41,977 nucleotides of DNA from a virus. This document shows positions 1-41,977 of the stretch, piece by piece. The position numbers and the translations under genes are program-made. The DNA lies in IMG/VR virus record IMGVR_UViG_3300045988_017181; one strand, given 5' to 3'. Within the stretch, counting starts at the first letter, position 1. Each line of letters begins with the position of its first letter. The notes under the pieces were generated by a model. That model did no database searches, had not been told where the DNA came from, and was given only the letters and a program-made list of their open reading frames with translations.

Positions 1-55
1 GCTAGTGTCCTAGCTGTCGCTAGTGTCCTAGCTGTCGCTAGTGTCCTAGCTGTCG
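1..55. repeat. Three tandem copies of the 18-bp unit GCTAGTGTCCTAGCTGTC (+G). The same 55 bp recur at 41923..41977.
   Basis: Direct reading: bases 1-55 equal the last 55 bases of the window. Confidence 0.95.
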
Positions 56-198
56 TTCCATGCCCTGAACTATAGAGCACCCCCGAATCACCTGTCAAGC
101 CCTCAAGTGAAAAATACCGTAAACATGATATCCCCTCACCTAGCGTCCTGACTCACTCTTTATATAGGGGCTAGCTGTGGAGTCCTGTCGACTACCTA

Positions 199-420
199 AA
201 GGAGTACCAAAGGAGTACCAAAGGGTACCCCTAAAGGAGTATCAAAGGAGTACCAAAGGAGTATCAAAGGAGTATCAAAGGAGTACCAAAGGAGTATCAA
301 AGGAGTACCAAAGGAGTATCAAAGGAGTATCAAAGGGTACCCCTAAAGGAGTACCAAAGGAGTACCAAAGGAGTATCAAAGGGTACCAAAGGAGTACCAA
401 AGGAGTATCAAAGGGTACAA
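199..420. repeat. Tandem array of 20 units with an 11-bp period: 16 x AAGGAGTA(C/T)CA plus 4 AAGGGTACC-type variants
   Basis: Units counted directly at 199, 210, 234 ... 400. The listed + ORF 177..431 is just this repeat translated. Confidence 0.95.
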
Positions 421-492
421 AGCACAGATAATGTTTTACCCAAAGGTAAACAATTGATCTAGATCAAACCCCATATTGACCCAAATCAACCC

Positions 493-524
493 TGTGGATA
501 ACTCTGTGGATAACCTGTGGATAA
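493..524 (-). promoter_or_regulatory. Triplet of perfect DnaA boxes (TTATCCACA on the minus strand) at 493, 505 and 516
   Basis: Exact 9-mer TGTGGATAA three times, same orientation, 12 and 11 bp apart. Part of a ~58-bp module (491-548) repeated at 630-686. Confidence 0.7.
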
Positions 525-630
525 CTTAAAAAAACACTGATAAATCAATAGTTTACCACAAGTACCCTAAGGATGTCGGATGTCAATAGGTACAACTCCC
601 CCTTGACAGCCCTTTGAATCTGTGGTGTCC

Positions 631-662
631 TGTGGATAACTCTGTGGATAACCTGTGGATAA
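631..662 (-). promoter_or_regulatory. Second triplet of perfect DnaA boxes at 631, 643 and 654
   Basis: Exact TGTGGATAA three times, followed by CTTGAAAAAACACTGATAAATCAA as in the first module. Confidence 0.7.
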
Positions 663-862
663 CTTGAAAAAACACTGATAAATCAACCACTTAGCTTACC
701 CTTTAGTATCCTAAGGATGTCTAAAAGACCCCAAAGGACACAGCGGGAGCCCGAAGGCACCAACAGGCACCCCCACGGGGGCAACCACGCACGTGAACTC
801 CTTAAGTGTGGGTTCACAAATTTGATCAATTTTTATGATCCCCTTAGTTACCCTTAGCTAGC

Positions 863-894
863 TGTGGACAACTCTGTGGATAACCTGTGGATAA
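863..894 (-). promoter_or_regulatory. Third DnaA-box triplet: 863 (TGTGGACAA, 1 mismatch), 875 and 886 (perfect)
   Basis: Direct reading. Same spacing and orientation as the other two triplets. Confidence 0.65.
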
Positions 895-1137
895 CTTTAA
901 ATAAAACCCCTCAGGAACCCGTAGCTAGCTTGCTAGCATTAAGGGAACCCAAGGGGAACTGGAAGTAATTATAACTAGGATACTAGCTCAAGCTAGCCAC
1001 AAGAGTACGTAGAAGAGCATCAACAGTAGACACATCCCCATTAATCAAGGACATTATAAAGAGGATGATGATAATGATGATTTTGATGGTGATGAATACT
1101 TTATTTTTAGTGTTATTGGTATTGTTCATTAAGGTCA

Positions 1138-1227
1138 TTCCCATAAGGGTCTATAGGCACCTAAGGATTCCCATAAGGGTCTATGGACTCCCATAAGGGT
1201 CTATAGACTCCCATAAGGGTCTATAGG
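1138..1227. repeat. Four copies of a ~20-bp unit (T/A)(T/C)TCCCATAAGGGTCTAT(A)GG
   Basis: CCCATAAGGGTCTAT seen at 1140, 1170, 1190 and 1210. Confidence 0.9.
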
Positions 1228-1296: not shown

Positions 1297-1357
1297 AAAA
1301 AGGGGGAGCTAGAAAAGACCTATATGTATATCTATATATGTCTTTCCTAGCCCCCCC
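1297..1357 (-). terminator. 18-bp stem, 20-nt AT loop and U5 intrinsic-type terminator downstream of terminase
   Basis: Arms 1302..1319 and 1340..1357. In minus-sense RNA the stem is complete with two G-U wobbles, whereas in plus sense those positions are A-C mismatches. Followed on the minus strand by TTTTT (1297..1301). Confidence 0.7.
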
Positions 1358-1376
1358 TAGGAGTATGGATTTTATT
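1351..1376 (-). promoter_or_regulatory. Phage-RNAP-type promoter copy (AATAAAATCCATACTCCTAGGGGGGG), right-end position
   Basis: 23/26 match to the consensus AATAAAATCCATACTCCTAGGGAGAG, which occurs 5 more times. The ACTC..CTA..GGGAGA layout resembles the T7 promoter core and +1 region. Confidence 0.6.
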
Positions 1377-1452: not shown

Positions 1453-4400
1453 TCAGTTATCACCTCTTGCTAGCTTGAATGTATACCCTTTATCCTTATA
1501 TCTGTCTACACCCTTAGAGGTACCTTTAGGGCTGTGCCTATCTTCAGTTACCATCACACCTCCGATATTGGACGTATAGAATCCATACAGGGACTCCATA
1601 GACTCCTCTAGCCATTCTTCGGTTAGTTCATTAATACCTTCATCAGCATCTACGCCCATGAAGTCCACAAGGTATTTAACTCCGATTGCCAAAGCATCCA
1701 GACGGTCATCATGAATAAGGGCACCCCTATCAACAGTGATACGAGTGAGCTGATAGAAACAAGCATATTTGTAGTCAGATTCAGGTACGGTAGAGTAGTC
1801 ATTCCTGATACACTCAGGAGTGACACACATTTTATGGTTTGAGATTACAGGTTCAAGAGTATCAATGATACGCAGTTCTTTTTGTCCTGTGGATTTGACT
1901 TCAGTAACCCCGCAGTTACTATAGGTTTTCTTTAGTACAGGTTCAAATAGTTTGATGTACATCCCGTCACCAAAATTACCCTCAATGACTACTTCATTGA
2001 CTTTGTACTTCTTAGCTACCTTAGCGAGCTTATTGAGGACTACATCAGAATAACCTCCCAATAGACCGCCTACTTCCATGACGTAGATGTAGCCGTTAAG
2101 GTAATACAAGATTGCATAACCAGTTTCGTCTTTCGATTCTATGAAATTTCAACAGCTTTCCACCCCTTATGGTGCTTACGAGTTCCCTTAGCTACCTTAC
2201 GAAGGTTCTGAGGGGTAAGCTCATGTTCTCTACAGAACTCTACAAGAGATTCTGGGGTGTAGTTGTTACCATTGGGGTCTGTAATAAGATAACGCTTACC
2301 AGTACCGTAGTTATGAGGGGTATCCCCCTTCTTAAACCTAGTATCAAAGCAATCTCTACATACAGTACCCGTTCTACGTTTAGGCATATACTTGTTGCAA
2401 ACGGAGCATCTAACGGTAGCTACGTCACCTCCTGCCCTGCTGTTCCAACCCATGTTTAGCTCAGGTCTCAACACATATTCCATGTTAAGAGCTTCAGCTT
2501 TAGGGAGCATCTTAATTAGAGAGATCTCAACATTTTCTTTACCAAGGTTCCTAAGGATTTCTCCTACAGGACGCTTTGAGCAGAAGTGCTGTGAGAGTCT
2601 ATAATTCAAAGATCTTCTAGTAATGCCAACATATCCACTTGCTAGGTCATTATTACCTTTTTCGTGAATATGGTAAACTTTGTACAAACGGGTTTTAGCT
2701 CTAAAGTTGTTGATTTTCATATTTATGTTTAGTAGTTGTTAATTACTTTCTTATGGTCGCCCATAAGTCCAGACTATATCTTTTTCACCCCTGTTTCCCA
2801 CTAACACTCAGCGGTACATAATAGTCGTTACACCTTCCTAAATTAGGCTTGGCTCGGTATTATCTCTTAGAGACGTTCACCGAATTTAAGGGTTTTATTT
2901 AATGACGAGGCAAGACAGTTCACCACGTCCCGAAGGGTCAACACATAGAATTTTATGTGTATATGGCACAACCTCATTAGAGGCTGCATGATAGTAGAAG
3001 TAAGAATCTCCCTTAAGGCCCATCGTAGGACACTCATCAACTGGAACCCTCTTAGAAGGCTCAGGGAGCCACGTGAGCTTCATTGGAGCCTCGTCTAAGG
3101 GGAACATACCTACGATGAGGTCACGAAGCCGTAGAGGGTATTTATCGGCGTCTGAGAGGGTCGTGTCAAGCATGAACTGCAGAGCGAAGCCTGCCTTACG
3201 ATAAGATAGTTCACGCTTCTGTAGATCTTCTTCAGAGAACCTAAGGGGGTCTGTAGGCTTACCTGCCCAACGCTTAGGATCCTTGTCGTACTTGTCAGCA
3301 ATGATAGAGGCCAATCTATCGCCATAGGAGGCTCTATGAGAGTCATCATAGGGATACCTAGCGGGATAGATTACAGCCGTGTATCCGCGCTCCTGTAGCT
3401 CGTTATAGAGGCTCATTTCATTCTGGGGGGTGCCCAGATAGATGATCTTTTTACCTTCACCAGGCTTTAGGACAGCGTCGAACTCTTTGACGAGCTCGAA
3501 CAACTGGTCTCTAAGAACCTGAGTGAAGGAATTAGATGGAACTTCCACCTTTATGTTAAGGTAAGGTCGTTAGTCTTACCCCATCGTCTTTTATTTGAGT
3601 CTACTGCGTTTTCAGTAGCAGTAACAAACTTACAATGATCCCTAGAGTAGAGTCCACAGTTGCCCTTCTTGATGTCCTTATCAAGGTGCATGCTAGAGTC
3701 CTTTTCCCATTCTTCATAGCCTTCTACCTCGTGAATAGTATTCAAGAAGGTAGTAAAGTTATGCCACCTAGGATCTACCTTACAGCCTACATAGCTAGTT
3801 TTGTAGTTACCATAAGCTCTCTTAAGCATGTTAGCCCACAGGTCATAGATCTTGCGGATGATGCTATTAGAGCCTCTAGCAGGGATTCTAATAGGAGACC
3901 CAATGAACCCTACACCATAGGCCGTAGGTTCCATAAAGTCTTCAAACTTACCTGCCTTAATGTTGCAGGTCTGAACATCAATGACTGTACCTGTCTTGAC
4001 AAACTGAATGACAGCCCTAGGATGCTTAACTTTACCATTAGGAAGTTTCTGCTTCTTAGTTCTAGACAGGATCTTAATAAGACCCTTAGGAGTTTCGTAA
4101 GTTTTGTTAATTTCGTACATAGTTATGTTCCTTATAATTGACGATGCTTCATATCTCTATGAAGACCAGACTATATCTTATACCAAAAGGTATCCCCATT
4201 TTTCGAGTCACTTGACCCTACATAATAGTCGTTACACCTGCTAAATAGCTCGGCTCGGTATTGTCTTTCCTAGTTAGGACTGAGTTCCACCGAATTTAAG
4301 GGGTTTAAAGACGACATGGTTAAAGTTTATCGTCTGCGACAATGATGTCTGCACGGGAACCTGTTAGCTGGCCCTTAATACCCACAGACTTAACTGAAGG

Positions 4401-4805
4401 TGAGTGGTCTGGCAGGGCAGGGCCTACATCAAAAAGGTTCTGAGTATCTCTTTGACCTTCTCTAGCCTTTAGGTGGCTCAGAAAGGGCAATTCATTGATG
4501 ATCTTCTTAATAAACGTAGCATTAGCGTCTGCTCGTTCTTTGTTGGCAGACACTACCATGATCTTAGTCTGTGGATCCCTCCAGAGACTCCAGACAACGT
4601 ATGCACACGTAATAAAGGATTTAGCTACACCACGGAAACCCATTAGGATCATGCGGTCACTAGGGGGGTTCTGTAGTAGCTTAGCAATGTCTACCTGCAA
4701 CGTGGTAGGAGAAGGCAACCCGATAGATTTCCAAACCAAAGAGGTAAATAGTGGGAAGTTCTCATAGTAGGGGAGTAGAGCTTTAGCCTCTTTCTCAGTT
4801 AACAC
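1453..4805 (-). CDS. Terminase large subunit (T7 gp19-like), split: join(4329..4805, 2922..3548, 1453..2133), ~594 aa
   Basis: The three ORF fragments are colinear with T7 gp19: [23 protein letters not shown]; ADIIVADD|VEVPSNS; DPSGRG|[17 protein letters not shown]; HDDRLDAL. Each fragment ORF runs 2-8 codons past the homology break into a stop. Probable GTG start at 4805 after GGGGAG. Confidence 0.9.
2134..2921 (-). mobile_element. Group I intron 2 in the terminase gene (788 nt)
   Basis: The 5' exon ends in U (GGT, 2922). P1 pairs GACGTGGT with GCCTCGTC (2904..2911), with a U-G at the splice site and one U-U mismatch. P/Q-like AAATTCGGTGAAC / ATACCGAGCC; R-like GTAACGACTATTAT (2815..2833); S-like AAGATATAGTCTGG (2769..2782). 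The intron ends in G (2134). Confidence 0.8.
2139..2720 (-). CDS. Intron-encoded GIY-YIG homing endonuclease (I-TevI-like)
   Basis: N-terminal KVYHI...GYVGIT..R...R..QH GIY-YIG signature, Cys-rich linker (CSVCNKYMP...CRDC), basic C-terminal DNA-binding-like tail. The stop lies 5 nt before the 3' splice site. Confidence 0.8.
   Translation of the reverse strand: MKINNFRAKTRLYKVYHIHEKGNNDLASGYVGITRRSLNYRLSQHFCSKRPVGEILRNLGKENVEISLIKMLPKAEALNMEYVLRPELNMGWNSRAGGDVATVRCSVCNKYMPKRRTGTVCRDCFDTRFKKGDTPHNYGTGKRYLITDPNGNNYTPESLVEFCREHELTPQNLRKVAKGTRKHHKGWKAVEIS
3549..4328 (-). mobile_element. Group I intron 1 in the terminase gene (780 nt)
   Basis: The 5' exon ends GACGAT (4334..4329) and pairs with GTCGTC (4315..4310), with a U-G at the splice site. 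R (4219..4237) and S (4166..4179) blocks are near-identical to intron 2. The hairpin after S (4147..4164) covaries with the intron 2 hairpin (2750..2767). The last intron nucleotide is G (3549). Confidence 0.8.
3551..4120 (-). CDS. Intron-encoded homing endonuclease, probable HNH (His-Me finger) type
   Basis: C-terminal MHLDKD...N..LYS...C.FVT..EN resembles the HNH_3 pattern. Sits inside the intron and stops 2 nt before the 3' splice site. Confidence 0.55.
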   Translation of the reverse strand: MYEINKTYETPKGLIKILSRTKKQKLPNGKVKHPRAVIQFVKTGTVIDVQTCNIKAGKFEDFMEPTAYGVGFIGSPIRIPARGSNSIIRKIYDLWANMLKRAYGNYKTSYVGCKVDPRWHNFTTFLNTIHEVEGYEEWEKDSSMHLDKDIKKGNCGLYSRDHCKFVTATENAVDSNKRRWGKTNDLTLT

Positions 4806-24745: not shown

Positions 24746-24769
24746 TAGTTATCCTTTAGTTATTCAGGT

Positions 24770-24864
24770 GCTAGCTATGCTAGCTGTGTCTGCTGTGCTA
24801 GTGTCCTAGCTGTGCTAGTGCCCTAGCTGTGCTAGTGTTCTAGCTGTGCTAGTGTTCTAGCTGT
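24770..24864. repeat. Array of 17-bp units GCTAGTG(T/C)(C/T)CTAGCTGT (4 good copies plus a degenerate leader) between portal and scaffold genes
   Basis: Copies at 24797, 24814, 24831 and 24848. The unit is nearly identical to the 18-bp terminal unit. The last copy encodes the portal C-terminus (AQLEH*). Confidence 0.9.
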
Positions 24865-26450
24865 GCTTCATTGACAGCCATCTGTGCACCTGCGTCAATA
24901 CCCTGTTGCTGGGCATACTGTTCCATAGCGGCCTGTTGTTCTGCCTGAAGTTCTTCAGGAGTCTTCACTAGACCCGTAGCATCAATATGAGCCGCCGCAA
25001 AAATCCTAGTAGCAAGATTACCAACGTTGAGAGCCTGTAGAAACTCAGGGAACTGTTGCATCAATTGCAAAGCCTGAGCTAGATTGTTAAGATCCTGTCC
25101 TCTACCAAGGGCATCAATACCCGTGATGATGGAGGGTTCAATCTCTGCAATACTCTCGTCAATCACAGGGAGCAACCCCTGAGATTGCATCTGATTGTAG
25201 ACACAGGCAACGAGAGGAAGCTGTAGCTCCTGAGACAGGAGAGAATAGACACCACCTAGGGTATCCTCAAGTTCACCTGCAACGTACCTAATCTCTTCTG
25301 CGGTAACTCTGTCTCTACCCACAGCACCACTCTGGACTGCAGAGTTCAAGAGGAACGCATAAGACAAACGAGACTCAATCTGTTGAGCAGTAGTGAGTAC
25401 CGTCTGCATGTCCATGCTCTTATTGAGTTGCATGGGAACAACGTCCTCCATACGACCCCTAACAAAGGCACCGTTCTCTGCCTTAGACAAAGCCCTGATG
25501 TTAGTCTGACAAGCAGGAGACACGAGATAGAGAACCTTAGAGGCAATCATGGAGATATCCACAATGCTCTTAGAGAGATTCTCAAGGGAGATAAGGTCGC
25601 CAAGGTAATCCTCAACAAAGGATCTACCGTAGTGTTCACCGTCCTTCTTATTGAATCTAAGGGGAATCCAAGGACTCTTGTTTGCAGGATAAGTCTGCTC
25701 ACTACCCGCAACAGGTTCGCCTTCAATCTCCTGATAGGATTCCCACTGATAGGTGTCTCCGCTAGCCACACGGTAAATGTGAGTATAGATGTCTACCTTT
25801 TCGTTGATAGTCGGTTCACCAGAATCAGAGAGAACAGACTGCATGGAATCAGGAAGACTACCACGGGAAACAGTGTCCTTAGCGACAATCTGAAGGACAT
25901 TGCCGATAGCGTCTCTCTGAACAGCGTACTCACGAAGAGTATAGCACCTCATGCCACCTTCAGCAGGAGGAAGGAACAGAAGTGCATTGCCTGCAATGAT
26001 AAGTTGCTTAATGGCTTCAAAAAGAGTCGGCCTAAGAGACTGAGACTCCATGTACTTAATCATCTGTTGTTCCATCATGGACAAACCGTATTCGATATTG
26101 TCCTTCAGCTGGTCATCAGCAGACTCATTAAGAGCTACAGTCGACTCCGCGTCCAACCCCAGTCTAAAGAAAGGTTGATTAGGAGGCAACAGAGAAAGAA
26201 GAAGCTTAGAGGCAAGATTATTAAGACCCCTAGCACCCACAGAATTGTAAGGAGTGGAATAGTTAGTACCACCATCATCAGACTCCTTAGGAAAGAGCAT
26301 AGGGATCGTGTAGGTTGCACACTTCTCTGCTCTCTGGGTGTATGGGTCTCTGTCTGTCGTGAGTTTGTCATAGGTCGTCTTAGCGCCTTCAAGAGGGATA
26401 TTTCCTGCGGTATGTTCACTAGTTGCCATTCCAACCGTCCCACCCATCAT
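24849..26450 (-). CDS. Portal (head-tail connector) protein (gp8-like)
   Basis: 533 aa. Position and size match T7 gp8. The true start may be the internal MATSEH. Confidence 0.85.
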   Translation of the reverse strand: MMGGTVGMATSEHTAGNIPLEGAKTTYDKLTTDRDPYTQRAEKCATYTIPMLFPKESDDGGTNYSTPYNSVGARGLNNLASKLLLSLLPPNQPFFRLGLDAESTVALNESADDQLKDNIEYGLSMMEQQMIKYMESQSLRPTLFEAIKQLIIAGNALLFLPPAEGGMRCYTLREYAVQRDAIGNVLQIVAKDTVSRGSLPDSMQSVLSDSGEPTINEKVDIYTHIYRVASGDTYQWESYQEIEGEPVAGSEQTYPANKSPWIPLRFNKKDGEHYGRSFVEDYLGDLISLENLSKSIVDISMIASKVLYLVSPACQTNIRALSKAENGAFVRGRMEDVVPMQLNKSMDMQTVLTTAQQIESRLSYAFLLNSAVQSGAVGRDRVTAEEIRYVAGELEDTLGGVYSLLSQELQLPLVACVYNQMQSQGLLPVIDESIAEIEPSIITGIDALGRGQDLNNLAQALQLMQQFPEFLQALNVGNLATRIFAAAHIDATGLVKTPEELQAEQQAAMEQYAQQQGIDAGAQMAVNEAQLEH

Positions 26451-27610: not shown

Positions 27611-27977
27611 AGAAATTCGGCGCGGAAACCTCTGTCTTCAGACAGGGGAGGAAGCGCCGTCCTCCTTTCTAAGTTCGGTTAAATAGGTGCTTCTCTTTTC
27701 GAGAAGCGTTTGGCGGATACCCGCAGGTTCCGCTTACACGGCCCGAAGGCCTGTTGACATCCTTCGCCAATGTTGGAAGGGGTTTGGTGCCTGCAACACC
27801 GCTCCTACCTCTCAGAGCTTTTAATCACAGGCCGCAGAGCGTGGAACTAGGATGTACATCCCACGGTGCCTATACATTCCCAACCAACGTAGCGCCTCTC
27901 GAAAGAGGGGCGCTGAGGCTAGTCAATAAAGGCTCTTTCAAGCCTCTGCCTTTAGGCAGGGGTTATTGACGTCTTCC
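27611..27977. ncRNA. Unclassified GC-rich, highly structured, ORF-free element (~370 nt); functional strand unresolved
   Basis: At least 10 local helices (plus coordinates): 27618-23/27654-59 enclosing 27629-36/27641-48; 27689-95/27701-07; 27713-16/27721-24; 27740-43/27748-51; 27761-65/27776-80; 27786-89/27797-800; 27891-900/27905-14; 27922-29/27963-70 enclosing 27943-50/27955-62. An 8-bp long-range pair joins 27647-54 and 27973-80. No ORF over 20 codons on the gene strand. Confidence 0.6.
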
Positions 27978-34823: not shown

Positions 34824-34911
34824 TGGTGCCCTAGGAGGGAATCGAACCCTCACGAGCCTTGCTTCTCCACTGATTCTAATTCAGTTGTGTATACCATTTC
34901 ACCACTAGGGC
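34824..34911 (-). tRNA. tRNA-Leu (anticodon UAG), type II with a long variable arm; CCA encoded
   Basis: Manual cloverleaf: acceptor GCCCTAG/CTAGGGC; anticodon stem ACTGA/TCAGT with loop ATTAGAA; T arm GAGGG-TTCGATT-CCCTC; 17-nt variable region. Confidence 0.85.
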
Positions 34912-35044: not shown

Positions 35045-35121
35045 TGGTCTCTCCTACAGGATTCGAACCTGTGACCGTATGCTTAGAAGGCATATGCTCT
35101 ATCCAACTGAGCTAAGGAGAG
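35045..35121 (-). tRNA. tRNA-Arg (anticodon UCU); CCA encoded
   Basis: Manual cloverleaf: acceptor CTCTCCT/AGGAGAG; D arm GCTC-AGTTGGATA-GAGC; anticodon stem TATGC/GCATA with loop CTTCTAA; T arm ACAGG-TTCGAAT-CCTGT. Confidence 0.9.
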
Positions 35122-37915: not shown

Positions 37916-37925
37916 AGTTGGGGTT

Positions 37926-37992
37926 AGCTAAAGGCTAGCTTGCTAGCTAAAGGCTAGCTTGCTAGCTAAAGGCTAGCTTGCTAGCTAAAGGC
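37926..37992. repeat. 3.5 copies of the 19-bp unit AGCTAAAGGCTAGCTTGCT straddling the RNAP stop codon
   Basis: Copies at 37926, 37945 and 37964, plus a partial copy at 37983. The partial copy encodes the RNAP C-terminal AFS*. Confidence 0.9.
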
Positions 37993-40617
37993 GTACATGG
38001 ACTCCTTGACTCGCTCAAGATCAAGGTTTCCCTTAGAGGGAATCTCAGGGAGCTTGTCGACCATCTTAGGAGACAAAAGGTTTTCAACGTGGTCATGAAG
38101 ATCCTGCAGTACATCATTCTTACTGTAGGTATCTACAAACACTTCCCTAACGGTCGTAAACATGATGTCACCATGTCCCGCAGGTGCTCCATAGGAGTCA
38201 TGAATCATCGCAAAGGACTTGACACCCTTGTCTACACAAGAGCACACCGTAAGCATAAGGTGGGAGGCATCCATGCTATGGACGTAGTTGGGTGCAATAC
38301 CCTGCTTCTGCTTTCGGGTGTCAATCTCGGGGGTACTCTCGTACACCACGGGATTGATAGAGGCACCTTCCTCAATCTGGCTGTCTTCCTTGAATGGCTC
38401 CTTGACTCGAATGGTTCCAGTAGTGAAAGTCCTGAGTTGCTTGAGCACAACCTTGTTGTACTTCTGTTTTACAGGGAATCCCGCAGGGGTAATCCAATAG
38501 GTAGGCATACTTTGGCCGTTGATGTCCTTGTCCTGAGCGAGGAGACCGCTTGCAACCTGAAGCCAACCCATAGCCTCCACAGCTTTCACTACGACCCCTT
38601 GCAGGGCTTCCCAGATCAATCCAGCCATGTACCTAGCGGACTGGCTAGGGCGACTGAAGGACGTGGGATTCTTTGAAAGAGCAGGGTAAATAGTGTCTTC
38701 TAAAACCTGTTCGGCAAAGCCAAATTTACTAGAGCCATAGCAAAGCGTCATGGTGCTACGCTTAGTCACCTTACGGGTAACTCCGTGCTTGAGCCATTCC
38801 GTGGCCATACTACGGGTGCCCTTCTTCAGGTAATCGTCACCGTCTTCAGTTTTAGCCATGGTGTCATCGGTACCATTGTCATAGTCCTTTTTAAGGAGTC
38901 CTATGACCTTAGTAGCGACAATGCCATAGATGTCATGAACATGATCGTCAGGCATGAGGTTGACGGCTTCCCCACCTACTTCGTCCCGAAGCATCGCAGA
39001 GAAATGCTGTAAGCCAGAGCAAGAGCCATCAAAGGCAATCGGGAGGTGAGACACGTAAGAGTCACCCTTATCCAGATAGTCCGACCACTCAAAGCAGAAC
39101 GCAAGGAATTCCCAAGGAGAGTCCGTCTCAGTCCATCGGAGATCCTGCAAGGGATCCTTGGCAATAGACAGAATCATGTCGGTGTTCTCATAGACCCAAG
39201 CAATACGCTCTTCAAAGGGTTTCTTGTCAAGGCCGTAGCAGTTAGCACCCTGAAAGGCCAACCACGTGTGACCATTCTCGCCCAACGGGACACCTTCGGC
39301 AAACTCAATGAGGGCTTTAGTAAAGTCATTACCTTGAGGGCTCAACTGGGTCAAGGGATAGACACGACCACGGAAATCAAGGTTGTGGGGGAAATAGATT
39401 TCCATGTCGTCCTTGTAGGTGTTTGCCAGTGCGAGGACACCATTGACAAGGTAACGCTTGCTCTTACGCTTATTGTCGTCTTGATAGTAGTGCACCATAG
39501 CACTTCGCCAATCACGCTGGACCTCCTCGTTAGTATCTGCCTCTACAGGCCTCACAGGAGGCTCCGCAGGGGTCGCAGAGGGCATCTCAAGGCCTTCAGG
39601 AATGTGGGCCCAAGAGCAAACCTCGTTAGCCACGTCGAGCACTCTACGGTTGACCCTCCAAGCCGTAGACTGGATGGCATTGACGGCCTTATACACGTTA
39701 GGCATGTCAACCTCATCGTAGAGCTGTGCACACTCCTTAGAGGGCATTCTAACAAGCTGTATGGGTTTCTTAAGGTTAATCAGGTAACCACCATCAAAAG
39801 GGGTAGACCACGGCTTAGGAGGAATTACCATTGGCCTATTTTGGAACATGAGACTAGCCGTTTCCTCATCCTCGTGTTCCAAGTACGTCAACACGTCGGG
39901 GTCAAGACAGAAAATGTAGTGCACGTTTTTGTTGTCACTCATAGTTTTCTCAAGGGCACCTAAGCCAGTAGACACGATGAAAATGTCTACCAACTTAAGA
40001 CCTACTTGGACCCTGTTAGCATTACCCCACTTGTTCCATCTCTTGAGTCTCTTTTCGTTTGCTAGGATTTTTTCTTTGTTTTCAACATAGCGCTTTTTGA
40101 ACTGCATGGAAATACGCTTATCAAGCCCTGCATTAAAGCGACTGAGCTCTTTCTTATCCATGGTTGCAACTACCATCTTGAACCGAAGTTCATCCTCAAT
40201 AGCCTCACCAATTGCAGAGGACAATTTGGTTAAAGACACGATTCCAAGGGAATTTTCAATGATGGTCCTAATCGCAATGAATGCGATTTCTTCGGAAGAC
40301 AAAGACCGAATAAGGGATGCCATCACATGACGCTTACCGGGCTTACCCGTGTCTACTTCCTTAAACCACTTGTCAAGGGCCTTAGTCATGACAGGGATGG
40401 CTTCACTGATAAGGACTCTAGAGGCACCCATATTACCAATAGTACCGCTTTCAATGGCCTTATTACGCTTAGACATGAAAGCATTGAAGGCATTTTCCTT
40501 GCTTTCAAGTTCTAATTCAATTTCCCTGTCTACACGGGCTTTGCCGTATTTAAGACAAAGATCATCATATTCATTTTCACCATCAATTCTAAAACTATTC
40601 AATTTATCATAAGACAT
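37981..40617 (-). CDS. Single-subunit DNA-directed RNA polymerase (T7 gp1-like)
   Basis: DGSCSGLQHFSAMLRDEVGG, IHDSYGA and a C-terminal ...YAFS. 878 aa. Confidence 0.95.
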   Translation of the reverse strand: MSYDKLNSFRIDGENEYDDLCLKYGKARVDREIELELESKENAFNAFMSKRNKAIESGTIGNMGASRVLISEAIPVMTKALDKWFKEVDTGKPGKRHVMASLIRSLSSEEIAFIAIRTIIENSLGIVSLTKLSSAIGEAIEDELRFKMVVATMDKKELSRFNAGLDKRISMQFKKRYVENKEKILANEKRLKRWNKWGNANRVQVGLKLVDIFIVSTGLGALEKTMSDNKNVHYIFCLDPDVLTYLEHEDEETASLMFQNRPMVIPPKPWSTPFDGGYLINLKKPIQLVRMPSKECAQLYDEVDMPNVYKAVNAIQSTAWRVNRRVLDVANEVCSWAHIPEGLEMPSATPAEPPVRPVEADTNEEVQRDWRSAMVHYYQDDNKRKSKRYLVNGVLALANTYKDDMEIYFPHNLDFRGRVYPLTQLSPQGNDFTKALIEFAEGVPLGENGHTWLAFQGANCYGLDKKPFEERIAWVYENTDMILSIAKDPLQDLRWTETDSPWEFLAFCFEWSDYLDKGDSYVSHLPIAFDGSCSGLQHFSAMLRDEVGGEAVNLMPDDHVHDIYGIVATKVIGLLKKDYDNGTDDTMAKTEDGDDYLKKGTRSMATEWLKHGVTRKVTKRSTMTLCYGSSKFGFAEQVLEDTIYPALSKNPTSFSRPSQSARYMAGLIWEALQGVVVKAVEAMGWLQVASGLLAQDKDINGQSMPTYWITPAGFPVKQKYNKVVLKQLRTFTTGTIRVKEPFKEDSQIEEGASINPVVYESTPEIDTRKQKQGIAPNYVHSMDASHLMLTVCSCVDKGVKSFAMIHDSYGAPAGHGDIMFTTVREVFVDTYSKNDVLQDLHDHVENLLSPKMVDKLPEIPSKGNLDLERVKESMYAFS

Positions 40618-40765
40618 AGGGGTTACCTTTAGTTATATCTATAGATCTTTTATATTCTTTTATATAGGGTTATATAGGTGATGATGTAGGATATTACCCA
40701 TAGTTAAACTATAGACTCCTGTGGTTTCCTTTAGATTTCCTTAGGAGTCTATAGCCTCTTTCACC

Positions 40766-40791
40766 CTCTCCCTAGGAGTATGGATTTTATT
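40766..40791 (-). promoter_or_regulatory. Phage-type promoter copy (exact consensus), 149 nt upstream of the RNAP ATG
   Basis: Exact 26-mer. The downstream 5'UTR contains a perfect 12-bp inverted repeat CTATAGACTCCT/AGGAGTCTATAG (40709..40720 and 40743..40754). Confidence 0.6.
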
Positions 40792-40808
40792 AAATCCTCG
40801 TGTCTCCT

Positions 40809-40895
40809 CTAACCATTGATTTTACCTTTCTCAACACACTCATCGTATTCATTTTCACCATCAATTCTAAAACTATTCAATTTATCATAAGACAT
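40809..40895 (-). CDS. 28-aa in-frame fusion mini-ORF created by the duplication (RNAP residues 1-17 fused to the last 11 residues of the DUF3310-like protein; the junction D is common to both)
   Basis: ATG at 40895 with the same RBS context as the RNAP gene. Reads MSYDKLNSFRIDGENEYDECVEKGKING*. Confidence 0.4.
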   Translation of the reverse strand: MSYDKLNSFRIDGENEYDECVEKGKING

Positions 40896-41043
40896 AGGGG
40901 TTACCTTTAGTTATATCTATAGATCTTTTATATTCTTTTATATAGGGTTATATAGGTGATGATGTAGGATATTACCCATAGTTAAACTATAGACTCCTGT
41001 GGTTTCCTTTAGATTTCCTTAGGAGTCTATAGCCTCTTTCACC

Positions 41044-41069
41044 CTCTCCCTAGGAGTATGGATTTTATT
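41044..41069 (-). promoter_or_regulatory. Phage-type promoter copy (exact consensus), second copy from the 278-bp duplication
   Basis: Identical to 40766..40791, offset by 278 bp. Confidence 0.6.
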
Positions 41070-41086
41070 AAATCCTCGTGTCTCCT

Positions 41087-41371
41087 CTAACCATTGATTT
41101 TACCTTTCTCAACACACTCATCGTTGACATAGATGGTACCGAATGACTCGAAAGTACGCAACCATTCGGCATAAGTCAGGTATTTGTTTCTGTCTTTCTC
41201 TGCGGATTCACCCTCTTTGCGTCCTGCTCTGAACGCATATTTAATCATATTGCCCTTAAGGAATCCAATGAATTCCTCATGAGATAATACATTGAGCATC
41301 AATTCAATAGGCTGGACAGCTCCCATGTAATGGGTACTTGTTTCAGGCTTTCCACTGTTAATTTCTTCCAT
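41087..41371 (-). CDS. DUF3310-like protein (94 aa)
   Basis: HY....QPIE......F..GN.IKYAFRAGRK.....D.NKY pattern. Start moved to the ATG at 41371 (AAGGAG RBS), because the longer track ORF overlaps the upstream small ORF. Confidence 0.6.
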   Translation of the reverse strand: MEEINSGKPETSTHYMGAVQPIELMLNVLSHEEFIGFLKGNMIKYAFRAGRKEGESAEKDRNKYLTYAEWLRTFESFGTIYVNDECVEKGKING

Positions 41372-41785: not shown

Positions 41786-41859
41786 GCTATATCCTATGGA
41801 CGCCCCTAGGGCGTTCTATGGCTTTCCTAGGGGCATTCCTTTAGTTGTTTGGCGTGGTT

Positions 41860-41922
41860 GCTAGAGATGCTAGAGATCTAGCGGTTGCTAGAGATCTAGC
41901 GGTTGCTAGAGATCTAGCGGTT
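41860..41922. repeat. 3.5 copies of the 18-bp unit GCTAGAGATCTAGCGGTT
   Basis: Partial copy at 41860, full copies at 41869, 41887 and 41905. Abuts the terminal GCTAGTGTCCTAGCTGTC array. Confidence 0.95.
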
Positions 41923-41977
41923 GCTAGTGTCCTAGCTGTCGCTAGTGTCCTAGCTGTCGCTAGTGTCCTAGCTGTCG
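41923..41977. repeat. Three copies of GCTAGTGTCCTAGCTGTC (+G), identical to 1..55
   Basis: Direct reading. Confidence 0.95.

What the first reader, a model, noticed from the sequence alone, without database searches (positions are those of the whole stretch)
454..894. Three helically phased triplets of perfect DnaA boxes in a T7-like phage
TGTGGATAA, the reverse complement of TTATCCACA (the canonical high-affinity DnaA box), occurs exactly 8 times, at 493, 505, 516, 631, 643, 654, 875 and 886. A 1-mismatch copy sits at 863. All are in one orientation, 11-12 bp apart, and grouped in triplets. Assuming equal base frequencies, a given 9-mer is expected about 0.3 times in 42 kb counting both strands. 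Two triplets belong to a ~58-bp module (491-548 and 630-686) ending in an A-tract plus CACTGATAAATCAA. A perfect 14-bp palindrome with two GATC sites (TTGATCTAGATCAA, 454-467) and further GATC sites (824, 837) lie alongside. T7-type phages replicate with their own RNAP, primase-helicase and DNAP and are not known to use DnaA. The region could be a DnaA-dependent origin or iteron, a datA-like DnaA sink that interferes with host initiation, or DnaA control of the early promoters. The three modules recall the three tandem early promoters of T7, but I could not find convincing -35/-10 hexamers.
Basis: partly seen in the sequence, partly recalled or inferred. Interest (0 to 1): 0.7.

Follow-up and report, generated by a model that had tools for sequence, protein, structure and literature searches.

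The report
DnaA-box arrays in phage terminal repeat
A T7-like gut phage carries nine near-perfect binding sites for the bacterial replication initiator DnaA in the non-coding end region of its genome; the same kind of array recurs in many unrelated phages, including cultured T7-like coliphages, and its job has never been tested.

Summary
There are 8 exact TGTGGATAA sites plus one 1-mismatch copy, all on one strand, in three triplets at 11-12 bp spacing (0.39 expected by chance). The window is a circularised T7-like genome with all its genes on the minus strand. The triplets are not early promoters. They lie upstream of the single strong sigma70 early promoter (98->69), on the terminal-repeat side of a T7-type concatemer-junction motif (TATCTGT, 430->424). 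The exact 33-bp triple box also occurs in 79 viral contigs of about 14 unrelated kinds and beside dnaA/dnaN in bacterial origins of several phyla, so it is an oriC-grade DnaA array. Cultured T7-like phages carry exact boxes in this same region. In phiEap-1 they are inside a verified 195-bp terminal repeat; in P483, A7 and nasanit this is inferred by homology. T5-like phages are a published precedent. Among close relatives the arrays change copy number (2-10), flip orientation or are absent, while the neighbouring end elements stay conserved. That fits an accessory function that depends only on DnaA binding. The mechanism is unresolved. I favour DnaA recruitment to the genome end acting in cis (0.4) over a DnaA sink (0.22) or a DnaA-assisted origin (0.15). 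It is a new variant of a known kind.

The parts
493..524 (+). Triplet 1: three exact DnaA boxes (493, 505, 516), spacers CTC and CC. It is part of the exact 33-mer TGTGGATAACTCTGTGGATAACCTGTGGATAAC.
   Evidence: the 33-mer is found in 79 viral contigs and in bacterial oriC regions
631..662 (+). Triplet 2: three exact DnaA boxes (631, 643, 654), the same 33-mer.
863..894 (+). Triplet 3: the variant box TGTGGACAA (863) plus two exact boxes (875, 886).
   Evidence: this is the position where clade-B relatives carry boxes in the opposite orientation
525..555 (+). A7 tract, then CACTGATAAA, then a perfect IHF core AATCAATAGTTTA (543-555). The core motif ATCAA starts 19 nt after the last box, the same spacing and polarity as R1 to the IHF site in E. 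coli oriC.
   Evidence: the consensus is taken from PMC4585315; the core is kept in only 9 of about 21 homologous modules of relatives
663..693 (+). A6 tract, then CACTGATAAA, then a perfect IHF core AATCAACCACTTA (681-693) beside triplet 2.
424..430 (-). TATCTGT, a T7-type concatemer-junction / class II pause motif. It marks the right boundary of the terminal repeat.
   Evidence: Yepe2 annotation has TR 1-269 and CJ 268-274; in phiEap-1 the verified 195-bp DTR ends exactly before TATCTGT; the motif is conserved 80-110 bp after the last box in relatives
766..786 (.). Palindromic hairpin element GGCACCCCCACGGGGGCAACC. It is the homologue of the CCCCC..GGGGG element about 25 nt from the left end of T7-group genomes, and a possible marker of the terminal repeat's left boundary (about 805).
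   Evidence: conserved in clades B and C; P483, A7 and Yepe2 left ends; the T7 sequence is from memory
815..840 (.). AT-rich element (cacaaatttgatcaatttttatgatc) between triplet 3 and the hairpin. It is conserved in clades A, B and C whether or not boxes are present.
454..467 (.). Palindrome TTGATCTAGATCAA between triplet 1 and the junction motif. It is imperfect in relatives.
193..422 (.). About 21 copies of an 11-bp repeat (TACCAAAGGAG) directly after the junction motif. It is the counterpart of the short-repeat arrays that follow the terminal repeat in T7-group phages.
69..98 (-). Strong sigma70-type early promoter TTGACA-18-TATAGT, reading toward the early genes.
   Evidence: in relative L036 the same promoter lies about 60 bp before the first early ORF
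1350..1376 (-). Phage-RNAP promoter (AATAAAATCCATACTCCTAGGG...) just after the terminase gene, the phiOR analogue. It is followed by the least stable DNA of the region (1310-1339).
983..1144 (-). Conserved 53-aa hydrophobic ORF in the position of T7 gene 19.5, between the phiOR analogue and triplet 3.
1453..2109 (-). Last exon of the T7-type large terminase, the last late gene. It fixes the orientation of the end region.

Best explanation
The nine sites are genuine, selected, oriC-grade binding sites for the host initiator DnaA. They are built into the terminal-repeat / concatemer-junction region of a T7-like genome, not into its early promoters.

They work by occupancy. DnaA binds each triplet cooperatively, because the 11-12 bp phasing puts the three proteins on one face of the helix. 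In this clade an IHF-induced bend beside triplets 1 and 2 probably helps. The result is that the genome end is folded into a DnaA nucleoprotein complex.

I commit to an accessory role acting in cis at the genome end. The terminal repeat is the first DNA to enter the cell, it lies 400-800 bp upstream of the only early host promoter, and it is where concatemers are cut. DnaA is abundant and membrane-associated. On this reading it captures and holds that end, as has been proposed but never tested for the DnaA boxes in the terminal repeat of T5. Titration of DnaA by the replicating phage DNA would be an unavoidable side effect.

Shown: the sites, their selection, their position relative to the junction motif, and their recurrence in or next to the terminal repeats of cultured T7-like phages. 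Inferred: DnaA and IHF binding, the full extent of the repeat in this phage, and the cis role itself.
For: Identity of the sites:
- 8 exact boxes against 0.39 expected, all in one 400-bp stretch.
- In 39 close relatives, 167 of 206 array boxes are perfect. The flanking bases are G..G in 165-167 of 167, as at E. coli R1 and R4.
- The exact 33-mer lies beside dnaA, dnaN or recF in bacteria of several phyla.
- It also occurs in 79 viral contigs of about 14 unrelated flank classes.
- More than 120 viral contigs carry triple boxes with any spacer, and none of the 70 checked encodes DnaA or DnaN.

Location:
- The genes are on the minus strand.
- The order is terminase, phiOR-like promoter, gp19.5-like ORF, triplet 3, AT-rich element, hairpin, triplet 2, triplet 1, TATCTGT, 11-bp repeats, sigma70 promoter, early genes.
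- TATCTGT is the right boundary of the terminal repeat in Yepe2 (annotated) and in phiEap-1 (verified), so triplet 1 lies 62 bp inside the repeat.

Precedents at genome ends:
- phiEap-1 has 5 exact boxes inside its 195-bp DTR, present at both ends.
- P483, A7 and nasanit have about 9 boxes filling the repeat. The A7 record ends 21 bp after the last box.
- Arthrobacter phage Seahorse has boxes 47-95 bp from its right end.
- T5-like phages have boxes in the left terminal repeat.

Function by binding alone:
- In clade A the boxes are on the sense strand, in clade B they are inverted, and in clade C they are absent.
- Copy number ranges from 2 to 10.
- The hairpin, the AT-rich element and TATCTGT stay conserved throughout.

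IHF: both modules have a perfect core plus A-tract with the oriC R1-to-IHF-site spacing of 19 nt.
Against: - No binding data exist.
- The physical ends of this phage are not mapped. If the T7 analogy for the left end holds (about 25 nt before the hairpin), triplet 3 and all clade-B boxes lie just outside the repeat on the right-end side. They would then not be on the leading end.
- The arrays are dispensable in sister clades, in Yepe2 and in T7, so any cis role is not essential.
- Their architecture is much less fixed than the T5 boxes.
- The IHF core survives in fewer than half of the homologous modules.
- The same arrays also occur in contexts unrelated to ends, such as microviruses and the heads of early operons.
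- The region around the terminal repeat is also simply the main repeat-tolerant non-coding DNA of a T7-like genome, so location alone is weak evidence.
Confidence: 0.4

Rival explanations
1. DnaA sink (datA-like decoy). The arrays act in trans. As phage DNA reaches 100 or more copies, each with 9-15 nanomolar-affinity boxes, it soaks up the cell's DnaA. With IHF it might even stimulate DnaA-ATP hydrolysis, blocking new initiation at oriC and altering DnaA-regulated genes.
For: A sink predicts exactly what is seen: perfect consensus boxes with optimal flanks, variable copy number, orientation independence, and gain or loss among close relatives. The window has a box-IHF site-box layout (triplet 1, IHF site, triplet 2), as required at datA (box 2, IHF site, box 3). 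Titration is a biochemical consequence of such sites whatever their primary role.
Against: The phage encodes gp3 endonuclease and gp6 exonuclease homologues, the T7 system that destroys the host chromosome. Blocking host initiation therefore seems redundant, and the same holds for T5. A sink does not explain why independent T7-like lineages all place the boxes in or beside the terminal repeat and never beyond the junction motif. The IHF core is poorly conserved. datA-specific spacing could not be compared.
Confidence: 0.22
2. DnaA-assisted (secondary) replication origin. DnaA, with IHF, opens or marks DNA near the genome end so that the phage primase-helicase, or host DnaB, can load.
For: The identical 33-mer is used in real chromosomal origins. 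The 19-nt box-to-IHF spacing equals that between R1 and the IHF site in oriC. An AT-rich stretch with a 13-mer-like GATCAATTTTTAT lies 25 bp before triplet 3, in the oriC polarity. In other phage classes the arrays sit next to replication genes: AAA_25 helicases, microvirus Rep, pol III beta. T7 secondary origins map near the ends (established knowledge).
Against: There is no DnaA-trio pattern and no strongly unstable DNA on the unwinding side of triplets 1 and 2. The polarity of the boxes relative to the conserved AT-rich element is inverted between clades A and B, and clade C has no boxes. The phage has a complete T7-type replisome. It also has T7-type origin candidates, namely phage promoters followed by AT-rich DNA at about 1350->1310 and after the RNAP gene. 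T7 itself grows independently of dnaA (established knowledge).
Confidence: 0.15
3. DnaA control of early transcription. DnaA bound upstream activates or represses the host-RNAP early promoter, or a cryptic extended -10 promoter inside the module, coupling early expression to the host's replication state.
For: Arrays lie upstream of the first host promoter here (about 395 bp), in L074 (about 230 bp), in SU10-type podoviruses (about 200 bp) and in P483. In some other phages they abut the start of an operon. TGATAAA(T/C) inside the conserved CACTGATAAA resembles an extended -10 (reading).
Against: No -35/-10 pair lies in or next to the triplets. 200-400 bp is too far for direct contact without a looping partner. 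The candidate extended -10 lacks the final T in the window and would point away from all genes. Orientation flips and losses occur without any change in the promoter.
Confidence: 0.07
4. The repeats are sites for a phage protein, such as the small terminase at a cosB-like site next to the cut. The match to the DnaA box is coincidental, or the repeats are neutral slippage products.
For: They lie beside the presumed packaging cut, like the R sites and IHF site of lambda cosB (established knowledge). In other phages arrays sit between or just upstream of terminase genes. The terminal repeats of T7-like phages commonly hold short tandem repeats.
Against: The same 33-mer, with the same flanks, occurs in phages with unrelated terminases, in microviruses that have no terminase, and in bacterial origins. 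81% of boxes are perfect and the G..G flanks are invariant across relatives whose neighbouring non-coding DNA is only 75-92% identical. That excludes neutrality.
Confidence: 0.05

Closest known systems
[quoted passage not shown]
   Same: Both are virulent phages with their own replisome and direct terminal repeats. Both have several consensus DnaA boxes in a non-coding, repeat-rich part of the terminal repeat, with neighbouring boxes 3 bp apart. The function is unknown in both; for T5, binding by membrane-bound DnaA has been proposed. T5-like records were hit by the box query.
   Different: In T5 there are 8 boxes in four fixed pairs embedded in inverted repeats, conserved in position in 25 phages, half of them non-consensus, and 6-9.5 kb from the end, beyond the pre-early genes. 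Here there are head-to-tail triplets of perfect boxes within a few hundred bp of the end and before the early promoter. Number and orientation vary, and there is no inverted-repeat frame.
Unannotated DnaA-box arrays in the terminal-repeat region of cultured T7-like phages: phiEap-1 (Eapunavirus; verified DTR) and P483, Shigella A7 and nasanit (Berlinvirus; by homology with Yepe2)
   Same: They have the same genome type and the same place, between the left-end hairpin-like element and the TATCTGT junction motif. They have exact TGTGGATAA boxes, all in one orientation.
   Different: The orientation is opposite to the window (TGTGGATAA on the coding strand). Spacing in phiEap-1 is 21-30 bp rather than 11-12. 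There is no IHF core. RNAP identity to the window is only about 41%, and sister phages such as Yepe2 lack the boxes, so these are probably independent acquisitions.
E. coli oriC left half (DUE, R1, IHF site) and the basal unwinding system of bacterial origins
   Same: The extended box is the same (C-TGTGGATAA-C). The 19-nt distance and the polarity from the box to the ATCAA motif of the IHF core are the same. The identical 33-mer is used in the origins of other phyla.
   Different: There is no dnaA or dnaN neighbour, no DnaA-trios, no low-affinity ATP-DnaA sites, no convergent box sets and no unwinding element with conserved polarity. The arrays are dispensable in relatives.
E. coli datA (DnaA-inactivating locus)
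   Same: It is a non-origin cluster of high-affinity boxes with an IHF site between the boxes. It acts on DnaA rather than on replication of its own DNA.
   Different: datA function depends on exact spacings between box 2, the IHF site and box 3. In the phage family the IHF core is often lost and the spacings vary. DnaA-ATP hydrolysis is untested.

Membership tests
High-affinity (R-type) DnaA box cluster | A 9-mer matching TTATCCACA, clustered beyond chance | tested here: met
   8 exact plus 1 near copy within 400 bp, 0.39 expected
High-affinity (R-type) DnaA box cluster | Flanking bases as at the strongest boxes (G-TTATCCACA-G, as at E. coli R1 and R4), maintained by selection | tested here: met
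   The 5' G is present in 167/167 and the 3' G in 165/167 boxes of 39 relatives, and 81% of boxes are perfect; the oriC sequence was verified
High-affinity (R-type) DnaA box cluster | Bound by DnaA | not testable with these tools
   Needs EMSA, footprinting or ChIP
Chromosome-type origin (oriC / basal unwinding system) | Boxes next to an AT-rich unwinding element and DnaA-trios, in a fixed polarity | tested here: not met
   There is no trio pattern. The least stable DNA lies elsewhere. Box polarity relative to the conserved AT-rich element is inverted between clades A and B.
Chromosome-type origin (oriC / basal unwinding system) | Needed for replication of the replicon that carries it | tested here: inconclusive
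   Clade C, Yepe2 and T7 lack the boxes, which argues against necessity; no functional test was possible
datA-like DnaA-inactivating locus | Essential boxes on both sides of an IHF site at fixed spacing | tested here: inconclusive
   The window has triplet 1, IHF core, triplet 2, but the core is kept in only 9 of about 21 homologous modules and distances vary; the datA rule is taken
datA-like DnaA-inactivating locus | IHF-dependent stimulation of DnaA-ATP hydrolysis | not testable with these tools
   A biochemical assay is needed
T5-type iss DnaA-box cluster | Boxes in the non-coding part of a direct terminal repeat | tested here: inconclusive
   Triplet 1 is 62 bp inside the boundary marked by TATCTGT; the repeat's length in this phage is not mapped
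T5-type iss DnaA-box cluster | Fixed architecture: four pairs within inverted repeats, conserved across the group | tested here: not met
   The arrays are head-to-tail and variable in number and orientation, with no inverted-repeat frame; the T5 description is
T7 early promoter cluster (A1-A3) | Sigma70 -35/-10 hexamers on the coding strand in each module | tested here: not met
   There is no promoter-like site in 430-900. The only strong one is at 98->69.
Iteron-type plasmid or phage origin | Repeats bound by a Rep initiator encoded by the same element | tested here: not met
   No Rep-like gene was found among the scanned ORFs. The repeats equal the DnaA consensus, not a private iteron.
DARS (DnaA-reactivating sequence) | A core of oppositely oriented boxes | tested here: not met
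   All boxes are in one orientation; the DARS rule is from memory

The most novel reading that the evidence does not exclude
Many unrelated virulent phages have independently built oriC-grade DnaA assembly arrays into or next to their genome termini. These include T7-like, T5-like and SU10-like podoviruses and actinophages with cohesive ends. The host replication initiator would then serve as a generic 'telomere-binding' factor that caps, anchors or synapses phage DNA ends at entry and at the concatemer junction, a role for DnaA outside replication initiation and transcription. A variant is that the arrays are DNA decoys that disarm DnaA.
Probability: 0.3. Interest if true: 0.8.

Novelty: new variant of a known kind. 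Interest (0 to 1): 0.62.

Why it matters
T7-type phages are the textbook case of host-independent replication, and their terminal repeats have no assigned sequence-specific host partner. This analysis finds perfect, selected DnaA arrays at the concatemer junction of this phage. It also finds them, unannotated, in the terminal-repeat region of cultured phages of E. coli, Shigella and Enterobacter. That turns a metagenomic oddity into a directly testable question: what does DnaA do at phage DNA ends?

It also links the untested T5 injection-stop proposal to a wider pattern. More than 120 viral contigs carry triple boxes, and the identical 33-mer is used in bacterial origins. If the cis role or the decoy role is confirmed, it would add a new function for DnaA, or a new kind of DNA-encoded host takeover. 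It would also give a simple sequence signature for locating the termini of some phages.

Tried and rejected
1. Reading the three modules as three early promoters. Rejected: there are no hexamers, the strand is wrong, and the real promoter is at 98->69.
2. A Dam/SeqA role for the GATC sites. Rejected: GATC is at chance density and not conserved.
3. DnaA-trios or a DUE beside the triplets. None found.
4. Queries made only of boxes against phages and plasmids returned nothing, probably because of the repeat filter or short length. This is uninformative, not evidence of absence. Queries with unique flanks did find annotated phages.
5. Host identification by megablast of 25 kb against all complete E. 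coli genomes gave no match. The host remains unknown. The sigma70 promoters and IHF-like sites suggest a proteobacterium.
6. Mapping physical termini from where IMG/VR contigs break. The break points are scattered, often inside box arrays, so they are repeat-induced and uninformative.
7. Mis-binned bacterial origins among the viral hits. Rejected: 0 of 70 loci encode DnaA or DnaN.
8. A firm IHF claim. Downgraded, because the core is kept in only 9 of about 21 homologous modules.
9. Rfam found no known RNA in the region, and no credible ORF covers the triplets.
Full report
**Observation.** TGTGGATAA occurs exactly 8 times in the 41,977-bp window, at 493, 505, 516, 631, 643, 654, 875 and 886. 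All copies are on the + strand. Dinucleotide-preserving shuffles give 0.39 (maximum 2). The only near copy in the region is TGTGGACAA at 863. Spacing inside each triplet is 12 then 11 bp. Triplets 1 and 2 are part of a 58-bp module (491-548 and 629-686, 98% identical), and the third copy (861-918) is 78% identical. The palindrome TTGATCTAGATCAA is at 454-467. GATC is at chance density, 162 against 158 expected, with 4 in the non-coding 1.45 kb. The palindrome is imperfect in relatives.

**What the window is.**
- All tiling ORFs are on the minus strand.
- They encode a T7-type set: single-subunit RNAP (41% identical to the T3/Yersinia-phage group; closest hits are human-faecal contigs), gp2.5-like SSB, endonuclease I, amidase, primase-helicase, DNA polymerase, gp6-like exonuclease, thymidylate synthase, NrdD, and a large terminase split into three pieces by two HNH ORFs.
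- The first and last 55 nt of the window are the same 3 x 18-bp repeat, so the contig is a circularised assembly.
- The non-coding region is therefore 41786-41977 plus 1-1452, between the last late gene (terminase, 2109->1453) and the first early ORF.
- Relatives have 1.3-2.3 kb of extra early genes at the circular junction, so the window is probably collapsed or deleted there.

**Anatomy of the end region, in gene orientation (decreasing coordinates).**
1. Terminase.
2. A phage-RNAP promoter (AATAAAATCCATACTCCTAGGG, 1376->1350; the same 26-mer precedes other gene blocks at 41069, 40791 and 37915), followed by the least stable DNA of the region.
3. Four 20-bp repeats.
4. A conserved 53-aa ORF in the place of T7 gene 19.5 (1144->983).
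5. Triplet 3.
6. An AT-rich element (840->815).
7. A CCCCC..GGGGG hairpin element (786->766).
8. Triplet 2.
9. Triplet 1.
10. The palindrome.
11. TATCTGT (430->424).
12. About 21 copies of an 11-bp repeat (422->193).
13. One strong sigma70 promoter, TTGACA-18-TATAGT (98->69).
14. The early genes.

In relative L036 this promoter sits about 60 bp before the first early ORF. The triplets are therefore 400-800 bp upstream of the early promoter, and no promoter-like site lies within 430-900. The parallel with T7 promoters A1-A3 is not supported.

**Where the terminal repeat is.** TATCTGT is the T7-type concatemer-junction motif. In Yersinia phage Yepe2 the record annotates the terminal repeat as 1-269 and the junction as 268-274. 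In Enterobacter phage phiEap-1 I verified the repeat directly: 1-195 equals 38939-39133, and TATCTGT starts at 196. By this marker the right boundary of the window's repeat is at 431, and triplet 1 lies 62 bp inside it. The hairpin element resembles the CCCCC..GGGGG element that lies about 25 nt from the left end of the T7 group (P483, A7 and Yepe2; T7 from memory). If that analogy holds, the repeat spans about 805->431. It would then hold triplets 2 and 1, and triplet 3 would lie just outside on the right-end side. The length of the repeat is an inference. Contig break points did not help, because they scatter and often fall inside box arrays.

**The sites are DnaA arrays.**
- The exact 33-mer TGTGGATAACTCTGTGGATAACCTGTGGATAAC occurs in 79 IMG/VR contigs. 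These fall into about 14 classes with unrelated flanks and 36-67% G+C.
- It occurs in only 11 of 185,579 bacterial species genomes. Four chromosomal loci were checked by Pfam on five flanking proteins, and in each the 33-mer sits beside dnaA, dnaN or recF: a gammaproteobacterium, Halonatronum, a Pseudobdellovibrionaceae MAG and an Armatimonadota MAG. Most of the unchecked loci show multi-box, two-orientation clusters typical of origins.
- Two other 'bacterial' hits are the same phage classes binned into MAGs.
None of the 70 new loci encodes DnaA or DnaN, so they are not mis-called origins.
- In 39 distinct close relatives of the window, 167 of 206 array boxes are perfect, 37 have one mismatch and 2 have two. 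The base on each side is G in 165-167 of 167 cases, as at E. coli R1 and R4. My oriC sequence was verified as 100% identical to E. coli chromosomes.
- The surrounding non-coding DNA is only 75-92% identical among the same relatives. The boxes are therefore under purifying selection for the DnaA consensus. Chance, neutral slippage and a private phage-protein site are all unlikely.

**A possible partner, IHF.** Each 58-bp module continues with an A6-7 tract, CACTGATAAA and a perfect IHF core (WATCAANNNNTTR; consensus as quoted in PMC4585315) at 543-555 and 681-693. These are two of only four cores in the window, where shuffles give 2.4. The core motif ATCAA starts 19 nt after the last box, the same distance and polarity as from R1 to the IHF site in E. 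coli oriC. However, the core is present at that position in only 9 of about 21 homologous modules of relatives. The A-tract plus CACTGATAAA is the better conserved part. IHF involvement is therefore tentative.

**Comparative behaviour.** I fetched 80 loci with relatives of the terminase C-terminal exon, oriented in gene direction.
- Clade A (94-100% identity): 2-10 exact boxes, always TTATCCACA on the sense strand, 520-1010 bp after the terminase, never beyond TATCTGT, and none in the 4.6 kb of coding DNA upstream.
- Clade B (82-84%): 2-4 boxes in the opposite orientation, only at the position of triplet 3.
- Clade C (75-76%): no exact boxes. At least one member (L152) shows degenerate remnants at that position.

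The hairpin, the AT-rich element and TATCTGT are conserved in all three clades. The boxes are thus an accessory overlay on a conserved end architecture. They are independent of orientation, variable in dose and easily gained or lost.

**Precedents in annotated phages.** blastn with flanked queries found the following arrays, none of them annotated.
- The terminal-repeat region of cultured T7-like phages:
  - P483, Shigella A7 and nasanit (Berlinvirus) have about 9 boxes between the left-end motif TCTCATAG...CCCCCC and the junction. The A7 record ends 21 bp after the last box.
  - phiEap-1 has five exact boxes inside the verified 195-bp repeat at both ends.
  - SEqdws-315 and NJ2 were also hit.
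  - In all of these, TGTGGATAA is on the coding strand, the reverse of the window. The sister phage Yepe2 has none.
- Arthrobacter phage Seahorse: three exact boxes and one variant, right after the last gene and 47-95 bp from the right end.
- T5-like phages, in the left terminal repeat.
- Gokushoviruses, in an intergenic region next to the replication gene.
- SU10-type podoviruses: 7-10 boxes about 200 bp upstream of a strong promoter and 0.9-1.5 kb upstream of the terminase.
- A high-G+C class: between the small and large terminase genes.
- A class where the array heads an operon with a YqaJ-type exonuclease.

**Literature.** The only prior description of DnaA boxes in a terminal repeat of a virulent phage that I could find is for T5. 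There, 8 boxes in pairs 3 bp apart lie in the injection-stop region, and binding to membrane-bound DnaA has been proposed but not tested (10.1101/866236; still cited as open in 2026). No paper in the held library pairs DnaA boxes with T7-like phages.

**Mechanism.**
- *Robust (about 0.9):* these are DnaA-binding arrays.
- *Best-supported reading (0.4):* DnaA acts in cis at the genome end or concatemer junction, by occupancy alone.
  - The placement recurs in or next to terminal repeats and physical ends in several independent lineages.
  - The function is independent of orientation.
  - The repeat is the first DNA to enter and the site of concatemer cutting.
  - Which step is served is not resolved. 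Candidates are capture or anchoring of the entering end, a roadblock that reinforces RNAP pausing at the junction, and synapsis or protection of ends. I favour capture of the leading end, by analogy with the T5 proposal. The main difficulty is that clade-B boxes may lie outside the repeat.
- *DnaA sink (0.22):* this fits the perfect boxes, the variable dose and the box-IHF site-box layout. It looks redundant in a phage that carries the T7 host-DNA degradation genes.
- *DnaA-assisted origin (0.15):* the oriC-like features suggest it. Three things count against it: the lack of trios or an adjacent unwinding element, the inverted polarity between clades, and the presence of T7-type origin candidates.
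- *Promoter control (0.07) and a phage-protein site or neutral repeats (0.05):* both are unlikely.

**Verdict.** Relative to the T5 precedent and to oriC, datA and plasmid box clusters, this is a new variant of a known kind. Its value is that the same feature exists in cultured coliphages, where it can be tested directly.

Noticed in passing
window 27753-27970 (-): A full-length HEARO RNA (RF02033, 139 bits against a gathering score of 83), the RNA associated with HNH-endonuclease (IscB-type) mobile elements, sits inside a T7-like phage genome.
   Followed up: no
window 1453-4805 (-): The large terminase gene is split into three pieces (4805-4320, 3548-2895, 2109-1453) by two HNH-endonuclease ORFs (4120-3551, 2720-2139). 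A group I intron (RF00028) is called at 2750-2964.
   Followed up: partly
window 40562-41124: A 278-bp direct duplication (99% identical) contains a phage promoter and the start of an ORF, just downstream of the early region.
   Followed up: no
window 1-55 and 41868-41977; also 24768-24867 and 37925-37992: Families of 17-19-bp GCTAG-rich tandem repeats recur in several intergenic regions. One such array forms the 55-nt overlap that circularises the contig. Relatives carry 1.3-2.3 kb of extra early genes at this point, so the window is probably collapsed or deleted there.
   Followed up: partly
window 34824-34911 and 35045-35121 (-): Two tRNA genes, Leu (anticodon TAG) and Arg (anticodon TCT), lie between the amidase and thymidylate synthase genes.
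   Followed up: no
L085-L087, L090, L091, L093-L095 (bacterial genome contigs): The identical 33-bp triple DnaA box, with the same spacers, is used in box-rich clusters typical of origins in several phyla. Adjacency to dnaA, dnaN or recF was confirmed for L085, L086, L087 and L094 (Gammaproteobacteria, Halanaerobiales, Bdellovibrionota, Armatimonadota). This is a case of convergence or deep conservation of an origin building block.
   Followed up: partly
L007, L034, L194, L236, L282 (Microviridae): Gokushovirus-type ssDNA phages carry 3-6 tandem consensus DnaA boxes in the intergenic region next to the replication-initiator gene, in either orientation.
   Followed up: partly
L120/L150 (IMGVR_UViG_3300045988_023475) and L126/L142 (IMGVR_UViG_3300029135_000005): Two contigs of about 76 kb each contain two different terminase clades of this phage family. 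They are probably chimeric joins of two genomes through the shared end repeats.
   Followed up: no
L036 7750-7810; window 193-422: In a close relative, part of the 11-bp repeat array after the junction motif is replaced by five 10-bp copies of CTGTGGAGAG, a 2-mismatch relative of the DnaA box.
   Followed up: no
L056 1-90; L129, L130: Some clade-A relatives have runs of 5-7 consecutive perfect boxes at the position of triplet 3. This suggests expansion by slippage of the 11-12-bp unit.
   Followed up: no
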